Part shown: one piece after another, positions 34,783 to 61,356 of the stretch
How positions within the stretch are numbered: position 1 is the stretch's first letter
Layout: every line of letters starts with the position of its first letter
Assembly (NCBI GenBank): GCA_964343875.1
Contig: CAYFJW010000001.1
Span: 9,696-73,695 of the forward strand
Source: Candidatus Woesearchaeota archaeon
Lineage (GTDB): Archaea > Nanobdellota > Nanobdellia > SCGC-AAA011-G17 > UBA489
Direction of reading: 5' to 3'
DNA length: 64,000 bases
Translations under genes and position numbers: made by a program
Notes under the pieces: generated by a model
What the model was told of the DNA's origin: nothing
Seen by the model: only the letters and a program-made list of their open reading frames with translations
Databases searched by the model: none

Positions 34783-34897
34783 GAGCCCGTAGCTTAGTCT
34801 GGTTAGAGCGCCAGTCTTATATGACGCTTCTTCGCTTAGAAGAAGATATAAGCTCTAAGAAAGCTGGAGGTCGGGAGTTCAAATCTCCTCGGGCTCA
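34783..34897 (+). tRNA. tRNA-Ile(UAU) with a 40-nt canonical 37/38 BHB intron (34822..34861)
   Basis: Acceptor GAGCCCG/CGGGCTC + A73 and a D arm almost identical to tRNA-Ile(GAU) at 61357. Anticodon stem CCAGT/GCTGG, loop CTTATA|A, anticodon TAT at 34818-34820. BHB: central helix CTTA (34816-19)/TAAG (34856-59), bulges TAT (34820-22) and AAA (34860-62). T arm GGGAG-TTCAAAT-CTCCT. Confidence 0.8.
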
Positions 34898-36698: not shown

Positions 36699-36757
36699 TA
36701 ACCAGTCGGCACCTAGCTATCGCCACCGTAGCTCAACGGTAGAGCATTTGCCTTGTA

Positions 36758-37201
36758 TGTCCACAAGGGATATAAAAACCATTGTCTTTTTTGACAGATG
36801 GTCTCAGAGAAAAAGAAAATTTCAAGAGAAGCGGAATTACGCTTTGCCTCTGAATTTGTGAAGAAAGGATACGACGTATTCTTTCCGATGTCGGAGTTTG
36901 GAGCTATAGACCTAGCGGTTCACAAAGATGGATGTTTTAAACGTGTCCAAGTGAAAGCTACAAAACCTACTAATGGGGGATTAACTGTTAAGTTGAGATC
37001 TACCAATAACTGGCAGGATAAGAGGTACACTACAAATGACGTTGATGGGATAGCTGCGTATGACTATATGTCTTGTAGAGGATATTTGTTCGACCTCAAA
37101 AAATTTGAAGGCCAATCACAAGTTGTATTAAGGACAAACCCCACAAAGAATAATCAAAAAAAGCTCGTTAACTCCGCATCAAAATTCCTGTGGTTCAAGT
37201 A
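36758..37201 (+). mobile_element. Bulge-helix-bulge tRNA intron (444 nt) carrying an endonuclease ORF
   Basis: hBHBh' fold: anticodon stem, then 3-nt bulge TAA (37200-02). Central helix CTTG (36752-55)/CAAG (37196-99), then 3-nt bulge TAT (36756-58). Inner helix GTCCACA (36759-65)/TGTGGTT (37189-95) with one G-U and one U-U. Cleavage after the second bulge nucleotide on each side gives 36757|36758 and 37201|37202. Confidence 0.75.
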
Positions 37202-37202
37202 A
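36798..37202 (+). CDS. Intron-encoded PD-(D/E)XK endonuclease-like protein (I-Ssp6803I / PDDEXK_5-like), 134 aa
   Basis: REAELRFASEFVKKGYDVFFPMSEFGAIDLAVHKDGCFKRVQVKAT (E...D...QxK core), then NDVDGIAAYD and LRTNPTKNNQ. These match my recollection of the family that includes the cyanobacterial tRNA-intron homing endonuclease. Confidence 0.7.
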   Translation: MVSEKKKISREAELRFASEFVKKGYDVFFPMSEFGAIDLAVHKDGCFKRVQVKATKPTNGGLTVKLRSTNNWQDKRYTTNDVDGIAAYDYMSCRGYLFDLKKFEGQSQVVLRTNPTKNNQKKLVNSASKFLWFK

Positions 37203-37244
37203 GCAAAAGGTTGGGAGTTCAAATCTCTCCGGTGGCTTTTCAAA

Positions 37245-46264: not shown

Positions 46265-47077
46265 ATGAAAATATTAAAACAAACTTTCAAAGTATACAAA
46301 AAAAGTTTCTTCACACTAGCATTTGCCCAATTAATGCTATTTTTCTCATCACTCTTCTTCTTAATTTTCGTAAAATGGAAGCTAACAGATTACCTCAGAA
46401 AGTTACAAGAATTCCAACCACAATTGCAACAAGTCTTAAACACCGTAGATGTTAACAACCCAGCAACGATTGATAACTCATTAACAGTAATTGAAGCATT
46501 AAACAGAGTTACAAATGAAGCAACACTATTTGCATATGTTCTTGTCCCATTAGTATTACTAATAATCTGGATTGCATTCCAAGGATTATTTTGGGGAACA
46601 ATAAAGAAACAAAAAATAAAACCAATAAAAAACTACTTAGTAAGACTTGCAATTCCATCAGTATTTATCTTGATTATATTCTCACAAATTGCATTCCCCA
46701 GACAGATAACAGACTTCTTTAACACTTTTGATGATAGCATCTTCAGAATAATAATCTCTGCATTCATAGGTCTCTACTTACTAACAATGTATTACATAAT
46801 CTTAGATAACCAAACACTAGCAAAAGCACTCAAACAAACATATAACTTGGCAATAAAGAAATTCTACAGATTCATACCATTGTATCTCCCTTCATTCCTA
46901 CTTACAACAATTCTATTTTGGTTAATGGCGATTGCATTGACACAAGAATACACAGGAACAACAGTTTATGCCTCATCCATAGAATTAATAATCATAAGTT
47001 TGATAACTTTAATTCTAGCAATGTTCTATAAAGTATTCCTACAAAACTTAGTTAACAAAGAAAAAGTGTGGGAGTAA
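46265..47077 (+). CDS. Polytopic membrane protein, last gene of the surface-protein operon
   Basis: Six or more hydrophobic helices. ATG at 46265 is 2 nt after the giant ORF stop. Its own stop overlaps the 3' end of tRNA-Leu on the opposite strand. Confidence 0.55.
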   Translation: MKILKQTFKVYKKSFFTLAFAQLMLFFSSLFFLIFVKWKLTDYLRKLQEFQPQLQQVLNTVDVNNPATIDNSLTVIEALNRVTNEATLFAYVLVPLVLLIIWIAFQGLFWGTIKKQKIKPIKNYLVRLAIPSVFILIIFSQIAFPRQITDFFNTFDDSIFRIIISAFIGLYLLTMYYIILDNQTLAKALKQTYNLAIKKFYRFIPLYLPSFLLTTILFWLMAIALTQEYTGTTVYASSIELIIISLITLILAMFYKVFLQNLVNKEKVWE

Positions 47078-47174
47078 GGATTCGAACCTTAGTAGGCACT
47101 AAGCCACTGGGTTTCTTAGGTTTTTGTTCTTAACCTCCTAAGCCCAGTCCATTTGACCGCTCTGGCACTCCCAC
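47067..47174 (-). tRNA. tRNA-Leu(UAG), class II, with a 24-nt canonical 37/38 BHB intron (47113..47136)
   Basis: Minus strand: acceptor GTGGGAG/CTCCCAC + A73, anticodon stem CTGGG/CCCAG, loop CTTAGG|A. Long variable arm TGGCTTAGTGCCTAC, T arm TAAGG-TTCGAAT-CCTTA. BHB: central CTTA/TAAG, bulges GGA and AAA, inner helix GGTT/AACC. Confidence 0.85.
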
Positions 47175-52168: not shown

Positions 52169-52576
52169 CTAACAACATCCTTTGGAAGAGAACCATTCTT
52201 TTCTTGTAGGCCTTTTAGTTTCAATAATTCCTAAAATATCTTCATTTTGATTTCTCTTGCTTTTGTCACTCGTTCGATAGATTACTATGTCTGCCCTTTC
52301 ATTTCTATTTTTTTTTGAGTTTTTTTCACCCCTTTGGATAGGAACCTCAATTCCCATTTGTCCAAATTCATAATCGTAATCTTCGTATAAGACTCTTTCA
52401 TAATCTTGTCTAACTTTTTCCTCAGGGGTTTCACGAAGTTGCTTCCCAGAGGATAAATCTCTGATATAGCCTTCTTTCAAAAGATCTTCCGTCATTTTTT
52501 CAAAGTTAGGGAAGTGGCAGACTTTGTAAATGTTTCTATTCCTTGAATAGTAGCAAAATTTGTTCCAAAGTTTCAT
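52169..52576 (-). CDS. HsdR_N-like (type I restriction R-subunit N-terminal, PD-(D/E)XK-type) domain protein
   Basis: EEKVRQDYERVLYEDYDYEFGQMGIEVPIQ...RADIVIYR...ILGIIETKRP. Start placed at ATG 52576, which overlaps the transposase TGA (ATGA). Confidence 0.5.
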   Translation of the reverse strand: MKLWNKFCYYSRNRNIYKVCHFPNFEKMTEDLLKEGYIRDLSSGKQLRETPEEKVRQDYERVLYEDYDYEFGQMGIEVPIQRGEKNSKKNRNERADIVIYRTSDKSKRNQNEDILGIIETKRPTRKEWFSSKGCC

Positions 52577-53787
52577 TCCAGAAATTCTCCTTTTATTCCT
52601 AGTTCTTGGATTTCGTGGGCTACTACGCATATGTTGTGGCAGAGGAATTTTAGGTATAGTTCGTTTTTTTGGGCTGTGAAGCTTTTACTCTTGAGGTTTG
52701 AGCCGAACTTCATTTTTATGATGTGGAATACTGTTTCTGCATTGGATCTTTTTGAATATTCTTTGAGGAATTCTTCATTTTTGTATAAGAAGAAGTAATG
52801 CATCTTTAACCAGATAGGACTCCCCCGCGTATTTACTTTGGCATTAACTTTGAAAGGGATGTAAGGGACTCCGCCTTTTTCATCAATTTTTTCTAAATTT
52901 TTCTTAGAACTGTAAGCTTTGTCACAGCTGACCCCGCCAAGCCTAAACATTTTACTTGTCTCATCGACGAGGCGGGAAAGCTGAGGACTATCAGCATGTC
53001 TCTTATCCGTGATGTTTACGGATGTGACAATGTTGGTTTTCACTCCAGACATTACGTGGGCTTTCAACCAATACCTGTATTCGTTATTGTTGTGATGTCT
53101 GTAAGTCAGATATCTTGCAAATTTGGAACTACTAAAACCAGAACTATCTATTGCAAAATCTTTTTCAACACCTCTCAATGGATAACTGCTGAGATGTATC
53201 AACTTTTTAACCAACTTGGTTGTCTGAGGTTTTTGCAAGAAATGCCCTACTGAAGCATAGCACGGCACAGAGGTGATTAATTTCATTTCGTGGGCAATCT
53301 TAGCGTAGGACATAAATCTCCTTAGAGAGAATGTAGAATAGACCTTTAGGGCTGAACAGAACATTAAGTCTTTTGTTGATAGTTTAGGTCTTCCAAATTT
53401 GTATTTAGGCTCTTCAATCTGATTACACAAATCATTTAGTAGTTTCATGAATGTGAATAACTCATTAGTCTGGGATTTGTCATAAGCCTTCCAGTTTTGT
53501 CCGTACTGGACTCTAACACCTTTAGTTCTCCTTACTTTTCCTTCTTTGTTGATTACATCTTTGATAAAGAACTCCACAGCGTAGATATGCTTACATTTAG
53601 AATGCGTTAGTTTAGAATCTGGACAAGTACATTTAGGATATTGTAGCCTGAAAGTTACTAGATATGTTCCTTTTCCTACTTGTGATGGCACGGACCAGCC
53701 TTTTTCTGTTTTGGTTATTTTGAGGGTTTTGTAGATTAAGAGTCCTCTCTCTTCCCTGTTTAGTTTTTTCCATTCTTGTTTTCTCAT
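52573..53787 (-). mobile_element. IS4/IS5-like DDE transposase with N-terminal SWIM zinc finger
   Basis: SWIM CTCPDSKLTHSKCKHIYAV. DDE triad candidates FAIDSSGF, GGVSCDKAYSS and SNAETVFHIIKMKFG. 404 aa. Confidence 0.7.
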
Positions 53788-57838: not shown

Positions 57839-58741
57839 TCAAACTTTAATTTTCATAAAATCCTTTGCAGCAATTACATCTTTCTTAAAGACTTTTTTTG
57901 CTTCCTTAACCATTTGTTCAACTTCAGCCATCTCATACCTTTGACTAAAATGGGTAATAGCTAACTTCTTACACTTACCTTTCTTCCCTAATTCGCCAGC
58001 ATCTTCAGATGTTAAATGTTTATACCTTTTAGCCCTAGCTTTCATGTCTTTCAAAAAAGTAGCCTCACAAATAAGTAGATCGGCATTTTTCCCAACATTA
58101 ACAGCGGCAGCACAAAAAGAAGTGTCTAACACAACTCCAACTTTCTTGCCTTCCTTAACATAAGTAACGCTCTTCCATTTAATTTTCTTGCCTTTATATT
58201 CAACGTCTTTCTTATTCTTCAATTTAGCAATAATTGGTCCAGAAGGTAATTTCAACTTCTTCATTTTAATTTTATCAACACAAACTTTATCCTTCTCTTT
58301 AGCATAATAACCCAAACAAGGAATACTATGTTTTAAAAAATAAGCTCCAAACTGATAATCTCCAGTATCCAAAAACACTCCACTCTTATCAATTACAGTA
58401 AAATTAATCTTTATCTTATGGCCCAAATCAAAAGTCCTAACTAATTGCATCAACTTCTTCTTAACATCAAGAGTTCCATAAATATCAATCTTCTTCTCAA
58501 AAGAATTCTTAGCCAAATTCTCTAACAAACCAGGCAAACCAAATATGTGATCTCCATGCCAATGTGAAATAAATATTCTTGTAATCTTTGGAGGTGCAAT
58601 CCCAGCAATTCTTAACTGCCTTTGCATATTTTCTCCGCAATCAACCAAAACTTTCTCCCTACCACAATCTATCAGAATGCCACTCTGTCCACGTTCCTTC
58701 GTAGGCACCATTGAAGAGGTCCCCAAAAATGTAACTTCCAT
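57839..58741 (-). CDS. rnz: Ribonuclease Z (tRNA 3' endonuclease)
   Basis: Metallo-beta-lactamase motif ISHWHGDHIFGLPGLL, LGTSSMVPTKER, ITHFSQRY. Confidence 0.9.
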   Translation of the reverse strand: MEVTFLGTSSMVPTKERGQSGILIDCGREKVLVDCGENMQRQLRIAGIAPPKITRIFISHWHGDHIFGLPGLLENLAKNSFEKKIDIYGTLDVKKKLMQLVRTFDLGHKIKINFTVIDKSGVFLDTGDYQFGAYFLKHSIPCLGYYAKEKDKVCVDKIKMKKLKLPSGPIIAKLKNKKDVEYKGKKIKWKSVTYVKEGKKVGVVLDTSFCAAAVNVGKNADLLICEATFLKDMKARAKRYKHLTSEDAGELGKKGKCKKLAITHFSQRYEMAEVEQMVKEAKKVFKKDVIAAKDFMKIKV

Positions 58742-58791: not shown

Positions 58792-59322
58792 ATGGCAGCT
58801 AAGAAAACCTTCCAAGCAAATTTTGTTGGAGAAGGAGTAACGGCGGAGGATGGACCCAAACCTAGAGAACTCTATGACAAAAGCAGATTTGGAGAATTGG
58901 TTTCGGGCAAATTCAAATATTCATTATCAGAAGCACTCTTCTTACTTGAAAACAAAAAGATAGAAGTCCTAGACAGAAACAAAACACTAACAAAGGAAGA
59001 TTTCTTAAAAAAAGCAAGAAAGCTAGACAAGAACTTCTGGGTTAAATATGTAGTATTTTCTAACCTCAGAACTAAGGGCTACATTGTAAAAACAGCACTA
59101 AAATTCGGAGCGGACTTCAGAGTATATGATAAAGGAATCAAACCAGGACAAGACCACGCAAAATGGATTGTTTTCCCAGTACATGAATCAAACACATTAA
59201 CATGGCATGACTTCTCAGCCAAAAACAGAGTATCACATTCAACCAGAAAGAACCTTTTAATTGCAGTGGTAGACGAAGAAGATGACGTCACATACTACGA
59301 AATCGCTTGGAAAAAGCCATAA
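58792..59322 (+). CDS. endA: tRNA-splicing endonuclease EndA, short (176 aa) single-unit type
   Basis: LSEALFLLENKKIEV, YVVFSNLRTKGYIVKTALKFGADFRVY, HAKWIVFPV (catalytic Y/H/K context). The size matches homotetrameric alpha4 enzymes. Confidence 0.9.
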   Translation: MAAKKTFQANFVGEGVTAEDGPKPRELYDKSRFGELVSGKFKYSLSEALFLLENKKIEVLDRNKTLTKEDFLKKARKLDKNFWVKYVVFSNLRTKGYIVKTALKFGADFRVYDKGIKPGQDHAKWIVFPVHESNTLTWHDFSAKNRVSHSTRKNLLIAVVDEEDDVTYYEIAWKKP

Positions 59323-61119: not shown

Positions 61120-61129
61120 TGTGGAAAAT

Positions 61130-61138
61130 CTTTTAAAC
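61130..61138 (+). promoter_or_regulatory. TATA-like box (CTTTTAAAC) upstream of tRNA-Asn
   Basis: Ends 25 nt upstream of tRNA position 1 (61163). Confidence 0.4.
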
Positions 61139-61162
61139 AATCCAGATTAGCTTTACTATCAA

Positions 61163-61302
61163 GTCTCGGTAGCTCAGTGGTTAGAGCACACCAAGTGGCC
61201 TAAAGGCGCAAGGGCTCAAACGGCTGTTATCCTTCTAGGGTAAGGCTGAAAACCCATAGGGCTGAGACCGTGAGGTCGGAGGTTCAAATCCTCCCCGGGA
61301 CG
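61163..61302 (+). tRNA. tRNA with doubly interrupted anticodon arm; best reading is tRNA-Asn(GUU) with two introns (61190..61219 and 61230..61266)
   Basis: Intact acceptor GTCTCGG/CCGGGAC + G73, D arm GCTC-AGTGGTTA-GAGC, T arm GGAGG-TTCAAAT-CCTCC. 67 extra nt lie in the anticodon arm. Joining 61163-89 + 61220-29 + 61267-302 gives stem CACGG/CCGTG and loop CTGTTAA (73 nt). Confidence 0.65.
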
Positions 61303-61356
61303 CTTTTTTCTCGCCAGAAAATCTTATAAATTGGTATAAAAAGAAATTAAAAGCAA

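What the first reader, a model, noticed from the sequence alone, without database searches (positions are those of the whole stretch)
61163..61302. tRNA-Asn(GUU) candidate with two introns, a 10-nt micro-exon, and one non-canonical (27/28) intron that borrows the D-stem for its BHB
All arms except the anticodon arm are intact, and 67 extra nt interrupt the anticodon arm. Intron 2 (61230-61266, 37 nt) sits at canonical 37/38. Its BHB is relaxed: bulges UAU and AGA, central helix C-G/U-U/G-C/U-G, inner helix CCU/AGG. Intron 1 (61190-61219, 30 nt) lies in the 5' strand of the anticodon stem. Its register is ambiguous by 2 nt because AC is repeated at both ends. For intron 1 I can build a 4-bp central helix, GAGC (61184-87, normally the D-stem 3' strand) with GCUC (61214-17, inside the intron). 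It is flanked by 3-nt bulges ACA and AAA and a 2-bp inner helix, but there is no outer helix. Multi-intron tRNAs with non-canonical positions are best known from Thermoproteales. They are thought to need broad-specificity endonucleases, yet the EndA in this window is a short alpha4-like type.
Basis: partly seen in the sequence, partly recalled or inferred. Interest (0 to 1): 0.7.

Follow-up and report, generated by a model that had tools for sequence, protein, structure and literature searches.

The report
Two-intron tRNA-Asn gene in a Woesearchaeote
This is a real asparagine tRNA gene of a tiny DPANN archaeon that, unlike the same gene in every relative examined, is interrupted by two short introns, one in an unusual place; it is a clean natural example of recent tRNA intron gain, but of a kind already known in archaea.

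Summary
Removing 61190-61219 (30 nt) and 61230-61266 (37 nt) gives a perfect 73-nt tRNA-Asn(GUU). That sequence is exactly the uninterrupted gene found at the same syntenic spot in at least eight related Woesearchaeota lineages. The only difference is one compensatory T-stem pair.

- **Splice motifs.** Both insertions carry bulge-helix-bulge (BHB) geometry at the boundaries set by the orthologs. Intron 1 fits only in register 27/28, where D-stem strand GAGC pairs with intronic GCUC. RNAfold predicts this as the dominant fold. Intron 2, at 37/38, has a weaker BHB with a U·U mismatch, and a stable hairpin competes with it in silico.
- **Assembly.** The two-intron allele is identical in four independent assemblies.
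- **Enzyme.** The neighbouring EndA looks alpha4-like: N and C domains, a Tyr-His-Lys triad, an acidic L10 loop and no N. equitans-type loop insertion. A beta subunit elsewhere in the genome cannot be excluded.
- **Literature.** Multi-intron, non-canonical tRNA introns are known, and their association with alpha4-type EndAs in DPANN was noted in Kaneta 2018.

Verdict: a new member of a known kind and a likely lineage-specific double intron gain. There is no RNA evidence of splicing.

Side finding: a tRNA-Thr(UGU) with a 444-nt intron that encodes a PD-(D/E)XK endonuclease.

The parts
61125..61140 (+). Archaeal promoter-like BRE/TATA element (AAAATCTTTTAAACAA), about 30 nt upstream of the tRNA start
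   Evidence: Read. The same motif sits upstream of the intron-less orthologs, and a similar one (AAAATCTTATAAAT) precedes the downstream tRNA-Ile. Promoter function is inferred.
61163..61302 (+). Whole tRNA-Asn(GUU) gene, 140 nt, with two introns; discriminator G at 61302
   Evidence: Orthologs.
61163..61189 (+). Exon 1 (tRNA positions 1-27: acceptor 5' strand, D arm, A26, C27)
   Evidence: Identical to positions 1-27 of the intron-less orthologs.
61190..61219 (+). Intron 1, 30 nt, non-canonical position 27/28 in the 5' strand of the anticodon stem
   Evidence: Absent from all orthologs. BHB geometry fits only register 27/28.
61184..61187 (+). BHB1 central helix, 5' strand GAGC (the D-stem 3' strand in the mature tRNA)
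   Evidence: Pairs with 61214-61217 at probability 0.91-0.95.
61214..61217 (+). BHB1 central helix, 3' strand GCUC, inside intron 1; it copies the D-stem 5' strand GCUC
61188..61190 (+). BHB1 5' bulge ACA (predicted cleavage after C61189)
   Evidence: The same cleavage rule recovers the canonical introns of tRNA-Leu and tRNA-Ile(UAU) in this window.
61218..61220 (+). BHB1 3' 'bulge' AAA (predicted cleavage after A61219). It lies in a junction between the central helix and the anticodon stem
61191..61213 (+). BHB1 inner helix CC (61191-92) / GG (61212-13), closing a small hairpin
   Evidence: Pair probability 0.81-0.85.
61220..61229 (+). Micro-exon ACGGCUGUUA (positions 28-37, including anticodon GUU at 61226-61228). 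It breaks down as: third nt of bulge 1, then 3 bp of anticodon stem, then 4 nt of central helix 2, then 2 nt of bulge 2
61230..61266 (+). Intron 2, 37 nt, canonical position 37/38
   Evidence: Absent from all orthologs. ARAGORN calls it as an intron once intron 1 is removed.
61224..61227 (+). BHB2 central helix, 5' strand CUGU. It pairs with GCUG at 61261-61264 (C-G, U·U, G-C, U·G)
   Evidence: Pair probability is about 0 in unconstrained folding.
61258..61267 (+). BHB2 3' side: AGG (inner helix, pairs with CCU 61231-33), GCUG (central helix), AGA (3' bulge, predicted cleavage after G61266)
61221..61248 (+). Competing 12-bp hairpin: micro-exon plus intron 2 start (61221-33) paired with intron 2 segment AGGGUAAGGCUG (61237-48). 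It buries the 5' splice site of intron 2
   Evidence: Present in the RNAfold MFE of the precursor and of the intron-1-less intermediate. Forcing BHB2 instead costs +10.4 to +12.5 kcal/mol.
61267..61302 (+). Exon 3 (positions 38-73). Its T-stem pair is G-C where all relatives have A-U
61304..61309 (+). T-run directly after the gene (likely transcription stop)
   Evidence: Function inferred.
58792..59322 (+). EndA (tRNA-intron lyase), 176 aa, the presumed splicing endonuclease
   Evidence: Pfam PF02778 and PF01974. TIGR00324. Best PDB matches are the N. equitans alpha subunit and M. jannaschii alpha4. Triad and loop analysis.

Best explanation
The locus is the functional tRNA-Asn(GUU) gene of a Woesearchaeota (DPANN) archaeon. 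It is probably the only such gene in the genome.

Origin. In this one species-level lineage the gene acquired two short protein-spliced (BHB-type) introns. One is a 37-nt intron at the canonical 37/38 site. The other is a 30-nt intron at 27/28 in the anticodon stem.

Proposed mechanism. Apart from the in-silico folding, which was computed here, all of these steps are inferred from established archaeal tRNA splicing.
1. The gene is transcribed from the conserved BRE/TATA element.
2. The precursor folds so that the intronic GCUC displaces the D-stem 5' strand and pairs with GAGC. This gives a 3-4-3 bulge-helix-bulge with a 2-bp inner helix.
3. The 3' bulge abuts the anticodon stem. That stem is also the outer helix of the second BHB, so the 10-nt micro-exon runs from cleavage site to cleavage site across two tandem motifs.
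4. The EndA encoded 2 kb upstream cuts after the second nucleotide of each bulge.
5. An RtcB-type ligase joins the three exons, and the D-stem re-forms.

The EndA is most likely an alpha4-type homotetramer.
For: Exon structure
- The spliced product is a perfect cloverleaf Asn(GUU) with discriminator G.
- The spliced sequence equals the uninterrupted syntenic gene in relatives whose EndA is 98%, 94%, 85%, 82%, 81% and 73% identical. It also equals the gene in 5 GTDB species representatives.
- The exons carry no damage. The only change is a compensatory A-U to G-C pair in the T-stem.

BHB motifs
- BHB geometry falls exactly at the ortholog-defined boundaries (86 and 2,891 of 200,000 shuffles; 28 of 7,259 site pairs).
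- BHB1 is the predicted dominant fold.
- The same geometric rule recovers the canonical introns of three other tRNAs in the window.

Expression context and assembly
- Promoter motif and T-run are retained.
- The allele is identical in four assemblies.
- No other Asn anticodon arm occurs in the window.

Enzyme
- EndA is present with an intact catalytic triad.
- Its acidic L10 loop, VDEEDDV, resembles M. jannaschii DADGD and is absent from the N. equitans alpha subunit. PMC2761253 describes L10 as the tetramerisation determinant.
Against: - There is no RNA evidence that either intron is removed.
- BHB1 has no conventional outer helix. Alpha4 enzymes are described as needing a strict hBHBh' motif (PMC3239211).
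- BHB2 has a U·U mismatch and near-zero probability in silico. A 12-bp competing hairpin is favoured by 10-12 kcal/mol, against 2.7 kcal/mol for two control introns of the same window.
- Only 64 kb of the genome was visible. A second tRNA-Asn gene, a beta subunit and the ligase could not be checked genome-wide.
- No homologous two-intron gene exists in the collections searched, so covariation support for the helices is impossible.
Confidence: 0.8

Rival explanations
1. The locus is a decaying pseudogene. Two unrelated insertions inactivated it, and a functional tRNA-Asn lies elsewhere in the genome.
For: - No RNA data exist.
- BHB2 is thermodynamically poor.
- Standard tRNA finders do not call the locus.
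- Only about 6% of a roughly 1-Mb genome was inspected.
Against: - All 73 exon positions are intact, and the only change is compensatory.
- Both insertions have BHB geometry exactly at their boundaries.
- The locus is the syntenic position of the tRNA-Asn gene in every relative examined.
- Promoter and T-run are retained.
- The allele is fixed and identical in four assemblies.
- No other Asn anticodon arm occurs in the window.
Confidence: 0.1
2. This rival concerns the enzyme only. The 176-aa EndA is the catalytic alpha subunit of an (alpha-beta)2 heterotetramer, as in Nanoarchaeum equitans. A structural beta subunit is encoded outside the window, and this explains cleavage of the relaxed motif.
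For: - The best PDB match is the N. equitans alpha subunit, 3IEY_A, at E = 2.6e-36.
- The N. equitans beta subunit is also detectable from this query (E = 8.5e-16), so paralogs can be found by sequence.
- The literature ties non-canonical introns to (alpha-beta)2 and epsilon2 enzymes.
Against: - No second EndA-like ORF exists in the 64-kb window, even at E = 10 with filters off.
- The protein keeps a full N-terminal domain.
- It keeps an acidic L10 loop, which the N. equitans alpha subunit lacks.
- It lacks the N. equitans loop insertion: Tyr-to-His spacing is 10 in all 124 homologs.
Confidence: 0.2
3. Intron 1 is excised in another register (28/29 or 29/30). These give the same mature sequence because AC is repeated at both ends.
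For: The mature product cannot distinguish the registers.
Against: At 28/29 only 1 of 4 central pairs forms, and at 29/30 none do. At 27/28 all 4 central pairs plus 2 inner pairs form.
Confidence: 0.04
4. The insertions are an assembly or chimera artefact.
For: Two Logan contigs (L014, L015) end within 1 nt of the start of intron 1.
Against: - Four independent assemblies from different runs carry the identical 140-nt gene.
- The contig breaks are explained by co-occurring intron-less relatives in the same project (L029, L030). These relatives create a branch in the assembly graph.
Confidence: 0.01

Closest known systems
Multiple-intron tRNA genes with non-canonical BHB introns in Thermoproteales (Sugahara 2008; Fujishima 2010, as reviewed in PMC4033280 and PMC4090602)
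   Same: - More than one protein-spliced intron in a single tRNA gene.
- One intron lies outside 37/38.
- The BHB is built by pairing intron to exon at the cost of the cloverleaf.
- Recent lineage-specific gain is inferred from close relatives.
   Different: - Those organisms have (alpha-beta)2 EndA with the Crenarchaea-specific loop, and many of their tRNAs are affected.
- Their introns recur with similar sequence in different tRNAs (the transposition model).
- Here the host is a DPANN archaeon with an alpha4-like EndA.
- Here no related intron copy was found anywhere.
ARMAN-2 pre-tRNA-Pro(GGG) with two adjacent introns at 53/54 and 59/60 (Fujishima 2011, PMC3239211)
   Same: - A DPANN host.
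- Two introns separated by a very short micro-exon.
- BHB motifs at both junctions.
   Different: - The ARMAN-2 introns are in the T-loop and are cut by an epsilon2 enzyme that carries the ASL loop.
- Here the introns flank positions 28-37 of the anticodon arm.
- Here the enzyme is a single 176-aa subunit with no such insertion over the residues that aligned (33-176).
Methanopyrus kandleri pre-tRNA-Glu(UUC): an HBh' intron at 20b/21 plus a canonical intron, cut by a loop-less EndA (Kaneta 2018, PMC5829648)
   Same: - One canonical plus one non-canonical relaxed intron in the same tRNA.
- An endonuclease without the L1, L2 or L3 specificity loops.
   Different: - The M. kandleri enzyme is an (alpha-beta)2 heterotetramer, and it cleaves the relaxed site inefficiently in vitro.
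- Here the enzyme looks alpha4-like, and nothing has been tested biochemically.
DPANN alpha4-type EndAs associated with disrupted tRNA genes (Kaneta 2018, PMC5829648, Fig. 7 text)
   Same: An alpha4-type EndA together with non-canonical or multiple tRNA introns, in a superphylum survey that included a Woesearchaeote.
   Different: - That paper attributes the association to an L3 (N. equitans/ARMAN-2-type) loop.
- At the position of the N. equitans loop (residues 90-98, PMC3488258), this EndA and 123 homologs show no length insertion relative to M. jannaschii.
- I could not see their alignment, so the definitions of the loop may differ.

Membership tests
tRNA-Asn | Cloverleaf with anticodon GUU after intron removal | tested here: met
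   ARAGORN on the spliced sequence gives tRNA-Asn(gtt), 73 nt, with all stems paired.
tRNA-Asn | Orthology to recognised tRNA-Asn genes, and discriminator G73 | tested here: met
   72 of 73 positions... more exactly, all positions except one compensatory T-stem pair (2 nt) match the syntenic intron-less Asn genes. The discriminator is G at 61302.
Archaeal protein-spliced (BHB) tRNA intron | Two 3-nt bulges separated by a 4-bp helix, with cleavage sites that give the correct mature RNA | tested here: met
   Intron 1 has 4/4 central pairs with bulges ACA and AAA. Intron 2 has 3/4 central pairs (U·U mismatch) with bulges UAU and AGA. Both fall at the ortholog-defined boundaries.
Archaeal protein-spliced (BHB) tRNA intron | Splicing endonuclease encoded in the genome | tested here: met
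   EndA at 58792-59322 with Pfam PF02778 and PF01974 and TIGR00324. The YHK triad is present.
Archaeal protein-spliced (BHB) tRNA intron | RNA ligase (RtcB type) encoded in the genome | not testable with these tools
Archaeal protein-spliced (BHB) tRNA intron | Experimental excision (mature RNA or circular intron detected) | not testable with these tools
   No transcriptome data were available.
Strict hBHBh' motif | Outer helix h formed by the strand 5' of the central helix and the strand 3' of the 3' bulge | tested here: not met
   Intron 1 has 0 outer pairs; the 3' bulge is instead followed by the anticodon stem in a junction. Intron 2 has 4 outer pairs but a U·U mismatch in the central helix. 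Both motifs are therefore relaxed.
Alpha4 homotetrameric EndA | Single subunit of about 180 aa with an N-terminal domain, a catalytic C-terminal domain and the Tyr-His-Lys triad | tested here: met
   (Y112, H122, K153).
Alpha4 homotetrameric EndA | Acidic L10 loop on the same subunit that carries the active site | tested here: met
   VDEEDDV aligns to M. jannaschii VDADGDI, and the N. equitans alpha subunit has a deletion at this point. The loop is conserved in homologs. The role of L10 is taken from PMC2761253. This is a sequence-level test only.
Alpha4 homotetrameric EndA | No second (beta) EndA gene in the genome | tested here: inconclusive
   None is present in the 64-kb window at E up to 10.
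Broad-specificity EndA (L1/CSL, L2/ASL or L3/N. equitans loop) | Loop insertion near the active site relative to strict enzymes | tested here: not met
   There is no insertion of 2 aa or more relative to M. jannaschii EndA over residues 33-176. Tyr-to-His spacing is 10, against 16 in N. equitans, in all 124 homologs. The first 32 residues were not aligned, so a short N-terminal loop cannot be excluded.

The most novel reading that the evidence does not exclude
Both introns were born within a single species-level Woesearchaeota lineage, with no detectable donor copy. They are removed by a loop-less alpha4 homotetramer of the kind regarded as strict. The enzyme would act on two tandem BHBs that share the anticodon stem. 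The first of these exists only because an intronic GCUC invades the D-stem, and its 3' site lies in a junction rather than a bulge. If true, this gives a natural before-and-after pair (intron-less orthologs at about 84% nucleotide identity) for studying how archaeal tRNA introns arise. It would also be a counter-example to the rule that relaxed or non-canonical sites need (alpha-beta)2 or epsilon2 enzymes or a specificity loop.
Probability: 0.3. Interest if true: 0.6.

Novelty: new member of a known kind. Interest (0 to 1): 0.4.

Why it matters
Three points make the locus useful even though its kind is known.

1. **Annotation.** Standard tRNA finders miss this gene, so the genome would look as if it lacked tRNA-Asn. 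This is the kind of hidden disrupted tRNA that Kaneta 2018 predicted for DPANN.
2. **Intron gain.** At least eight related lineages keep an intron-less gene that is identical apart from one compensatory T-stem pair. That dates both insertions to one lineage and fixes their boundaries without RNA data. Such a clean case of archaeal tRNA intron gain is uncommon.
3. **Enzyme specificity.** An alpha4-like EndA without known specificity loops sits next to a non-canonical, relaxed splice motif. This makes the substrate-range question directly testable with one recombinant protein and one transcript.

Tried and rejected
- **Donor copies of the introns.** blastn-short of both introns against the window and all fetched loci found only the population's own copies. 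Exact-core scans of viral contigs found nothing.
- **Other intron-bearing tRNA-Asn genes with the same exons.** Two gapped-pattern scans of JGI metagenomes gave 0 hits. A GTDB scan with the 3' exon returned 5 species, all intron-less. Covariation analysis of the BHB helices was therefore impossible.
- **Origin by duplication.** Introns as degenerate duplications of the tRNA's own D-arm or anticodon arm, or of each other: local alignments against shuffles were not significant (p = 0.11-0.66). The shared 3' ends (AGGGCUCAA|AC and AGGGCUGAG|AC) remain only suggestive.
- **Import by recombination from a divergent donor.** Flanking identity to the closest relative is not depressed around the gene.
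- **ARAGORN's alternative reading.** ARAGORN read the unspliced locus as tRNA-Leu(gag) with a 69-nt intron. This reading has mismatched stems and is contradicted by the orthologs.
- **C/D-box guide RNA in intron 2.** It contains CUGA boxes but no C box, and at 37 nt it is too short (from the sequence; rejected).
- **Second EndA paralog in the window.** None was found.
- **Group I intron in the tRNA-Thr intron.** No Rfam hit.
- **Kaneta 2018 supplement.** It is not held, so the exact EndA and loop assignment for their Woesearchaeote could not be checked.

Full report
**What is there.** The stretch 61163-61302 (+) reads GTCTCGG TA GCTC AGTGGTTA GAGC A C | 30 nt | ACGGCTGTTA | 37 nt | ACCGTG AGGTC GGAGG TTCAAAT CCTCC CCGGGAC G. 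ARAGORN in default mode and Rfam at gathering threshold do not call it. A permissive Rfam scan gives only a 19.6-bit partial tRNA match over intron 2 and the T arm. After deleting 61190-61219 and 61230-61266, ARAGORN reports a 73-nt tRNA-Asn(gtt) with every stem paired. Deleting either insertion alone makes ARAGORN call the other one as an intron.

**Organism and context.** The window is about 36% G+C and archaeal (TBP, topoisomerase VI, thermosome). The EndA at 58792-59322 is 94% identical to a protein that NCBI names tRNA-intron lyase of a Candidatus Woesearchaeota archaeon. Gene order around it is conserved in relatives: TFIIB, an MBL-fold protein, EndA, two unknown ORFs, tRNA-Asn, tRNA-Ile, an ORF, a tRNA-binding protein and MetRS.

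**Decisive comparison.** At the same intergenic position every relative carries an uninterrupted tRNA-Asn:

GTCTCGGTAGCTCAGTGGTTAGAGCACACGGCTGTTAACCGTGAGGTCGAAGGTTCAAATCCTTCCCGGGACG

- This is the predicted spliced product of the window gene, apart from one T-stem pair (A-U in relatives, G-C here, changed on both sides).
- It holds for lineages whose EndA is 98% (L021, L022, L024), 94% (L001-L003, L016), 85% (L004-L006), 82% (L007), 81% (L029, L030, L020) and 73% (L031, L032, L018) identical. It also holds for L017 and L019.
- The closest relative is still only about 84% identical in DNA across 8 kb, so it is a different species.
- The comparison fixes the insertions as 30 nt (register 27/28, 28/29 or 29/30, because AC is repeated) and 37 nt (unique at 37/38).
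- With all outgroups intron-less, gain in the window lineage is the parsimonious reading (inference).
- The two-intron allele is base-for-base identical in four independent assemblies of project PRJEB17505 (L010-L013).

**Are the insertions introns?** I applied the canonical rule for the archaeal splice motif: a 4-bp central helix, 3-nt bulges and cleavage after the second bulge nucleotide. The rule is taken from established knowledge of the motif. It was validated here because it recovers the 37/38 introns of three other tRNAs of this window.

- **Intron 1.** It fits only in register 27/28. GAGC (61184-87) pairs with GCUC (61214-17), the bulges are ACA and AAA, the inner helix is CC/GG, and there are no conventional outer pairs. 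Registers 28/29 and 29/30 give 1 and 0 central pairs. Only 86 of 200,000 shuffled introns do as well.
- **Intron 2.** It has 3 of 4 central pairs (C-G, U·U, G-C, U·G), inner helix CCU/AGG and a 4-bp outer helix. This was reached by 2,891 of 200,000 shuffles.
- **Specificity.** Across the whole precursor only 28 of 7,259 site pairs pass comparable criteria, and both ortholog-defined pairs are among them.

**Architecture.** The micro-exon ACGGCUGUUA is made of four parts: the third nucleotide of bulge 1, three anticodon-stem pairs, the four nucleotides of central helix 2, and the first two nucleotides of bulge 2. The two motifs are therefore tandem and share the anticodon stem. The 3' 'bulge' of intron 1 is a junction strand between its central helix and that stem. 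My reading is that this stem could stack in place of the outer helix. That is an inference, not shown.

| Motif | RNA folded | Pair probability | Cost of forcing the motif |
|---|---|---|---|
| BHB1 (intron 1) | full precursor | 0.81-0.91 | 0 kcal/mol (it is the MFE) |
| BHB1 (intron 1) | intermediate lacking intron 2 | 0.85-0.95 | +3.9 kcal/mol |
| D-stem | both of the above | 0.004-0.035 | not computed |
| BHB2 (intron 2) | full precursor | about 0 | +12.5 kcal/mol |
| BHB2 (intron 2) | intermediate lacking intron 1 | about 0 | +10.4 kcal/mol |
| Control: tRNA-Leu intron | its precursor | 0.68 (central pairs) | +2.7 kcal/mol |
| Control: tRNA-Ile(UAU) intron | its precursor | 0.02 (central pairs) | +2.7 kcal/mol |

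(Values.)

- The competitor to BHB2 is a 12-bp hairpin between 61221-61233 and the intron segment 61237-61248.
- Even with the whole cloverleaf enforced, a bulge-less pairing is preferred over BHB2 by about 5.6 kcal/mol.
- Intron 2 contains an imperfect internal repeat (UAGGGUAAGGCUGA and UAGGG-CUGA). This gives the anticodon region two alternative partners.
- A 16-nt version, UCCUUCUAGGGCUGAG, would be a tidy minimal intron.
- I cannot explain this feature. It lowers confidence in efficient splicing of intron 2, although energy models ignore tRNA tertiary structure and enzyme binding.

**The enzyme.**
- The 176-aa EndA has the Pfam N-terminal and catalytic domains.
- Its best solved relatives are the N. 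equitans catalytic alpha subunit (3IEY_A, 2.6e-36) and the M. jannaschii alpha4 enzyme (1A79, 2.6e-29).
- Over residues 33-176 it aligns to the M. jannaschii enzyme with a single one-residue gap.
- It has the Tyr-His-Lys triad and a Tyr-to-His spacing of 10, as in M. jannaschii. N. equitans has 16 because of its basic loop 90-98 (PMC3488258).
- It has an acidic L10 loop (VDEEDDV), which the N. equitans alpha subunit lacks.
- All 124 homologs examined share these features.
- L10 is the determinant of tetramer assembly (PMC2761253). A subunit that has both an active site and L10 is what an alpha4 enzyme needs.
- No second EndA-like ORF is present in the window, but the rest of the genome could not be searched.

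**Literature.**
- Alpha4 and alpha'2 enzymes are described as needing a strict 3-4-3 hBHBh' motif. Relaxed motifs are assigned to (alpha-beta)2 and epsilon2 enzymes with specificity loops (PMC3239211, PMC5829648).
- Kaneta et al. 2018 already reported alpha4-type EndAs in several DPANN lineages associated with increased tRNA gene disruption. They attributed this to an L3 loop, and they predicted undiscovered disrupted tRNA genes in DPANN.
- I see no L3-length insertion in this family. I could not view their alignment, so this discrepancy stands unresolved.
- Two adjacent introns with a micro-exon are known in ARMAN-2 tRNA-Pro.
- A canonical plus a relaxed intron cut by a loop-less enzyme is known in M. 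kandleri tRNA-Glu.
- Rapid gain by intron transposition is described for Thermoproteales.

**Origin of the introns.** No related sequence was found in the window, in any fetched locus, in JGI metagenomes (through the exon-anchored patterns) or in viral contigs. Similarity of the introns to the tRNA itself or to each other is not significant. The two 3' ends are alike (AGGGCUCAA|AC and AGGGCUGAG|AC), which is suggestive only. The source genome is absent from the GTDB collection that I could scan, so a donor copy elsewhere in the same genome cannot be excluded.

**Verdict.** The locus is a genuine tRNA-Asn(GUU) gene with two BHB-type introns, one of them non-canonical. It is specific to one Woesearchaeota lineage and sits next to an alpha4-like EndA. 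The kind is known. The clean gain scenario and the enzyme/substrate pairing give it moderate interest. Splicing, its order and the enzyme's oligomeric state are inferred, not shown.

Noticed in passing
window 36722-37237 (+); intron 36758-37201; ORF 36798-37202: A hidden tRNA-Thr(UGU), missed by ARAGORN and Rfam, with a 444-nt intron at 37/38.
- BHB: central helix CUUG/CAAG, bulges UAU and UAA. The ORF's stop codon TAA is the 3' bulge.
- The intron is almost filled by a 134-aa ORF of Pfam PF11645 (PDDEXK_5, E = 1.2e-17). Its only PDB hit is 2OST_A, 'putative endonuclease', at E = 0.36 (from memory, the homing endonuclease I-Ssp6803I).
- No group I intron signal in Rfam.
- 23 homologs exist. 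One (L033) also sits in a 453-nt intron of tRNA-Thr(UGU). Two others (L034, L035) are free-standing right next to a tRNA-Thr(UGU) gene.
- It looks like a homing-endonuclease family tied to tRNA-Thr in DPANN BHB introns.
   Followed up: partly
window 34783-34897 (+); intron 34822-34861: ARAGORN with introns calls this tRNA 'Ser(tga)'. BHB geometry and re-scanning of the spliced sequence show it is tRNA-Ile(UAU) with a 40-nt intron at 37/38. A UAU isoleucine tRNA is uncommon in archaea (from memory).
   Followed up: partly
window 47067-47174 (-); intron 47113-47136: ARAGORN calls this Leu(taa). The strict BHB (central CUUA/UAAG, 4 inner and 6 outer pairs) places the 24-nt intron so that the anticodon is UAG with G37, which makes it tRNA-Leu(UAG).
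   Followed up: partly
L014 and L015 (Logan contigs of ERR2281800 and ERR2281804), ends of contigs: Two contigs that carry the identical EndA stop at ...GAGCACA, within 1 nt of the start of intron 1. This suggests a branch in the assembly graph. Intron-less relatives co-occur in the same project (L029, L030), so the break may reflect those relatives or a presence/absence polymorphism.
   Followed up: partly
window 61236-61249 and 61257-61265: Imperfect internal repeat inside intron 2 (UAGGGUAAGGCUGA and UAGGG-CUGA). The proximal copy forms a 12-bp hairpin with the micro-exon that competes with the splice motif. Unexplained.
   Followed up: partly
window 57839-58741 (-), next to EndA: A metallo-beta-lactamase-fold protein is conserved immediately upstream of EndA, on the opposite strand, in all relatives. 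It has weak similarity to Anti-Pycsar Apyc1 and, at E = 0.07, to the tRNase Z domain. It may be an RNA-processing nuclease.
   Followed up: no
L001 11330-11824, L004 11335-11808, L007 11382-11843 (just beyond the 3' end of the window in relatives): Relatives encode a protein of about 155-165 aa with Pfam Sigma70_r2 and r4 domains downstream of MetRS. A bacterial-type sigma-factor-like protein in an archaeon is unexpected.
   Followed up: no
window 52573-53787 (-): DDE transposase (PF01609, 5.8e-22), so an insertion sequence lies in the window. A related transposase is near EndA in L030.
   Followed up: no
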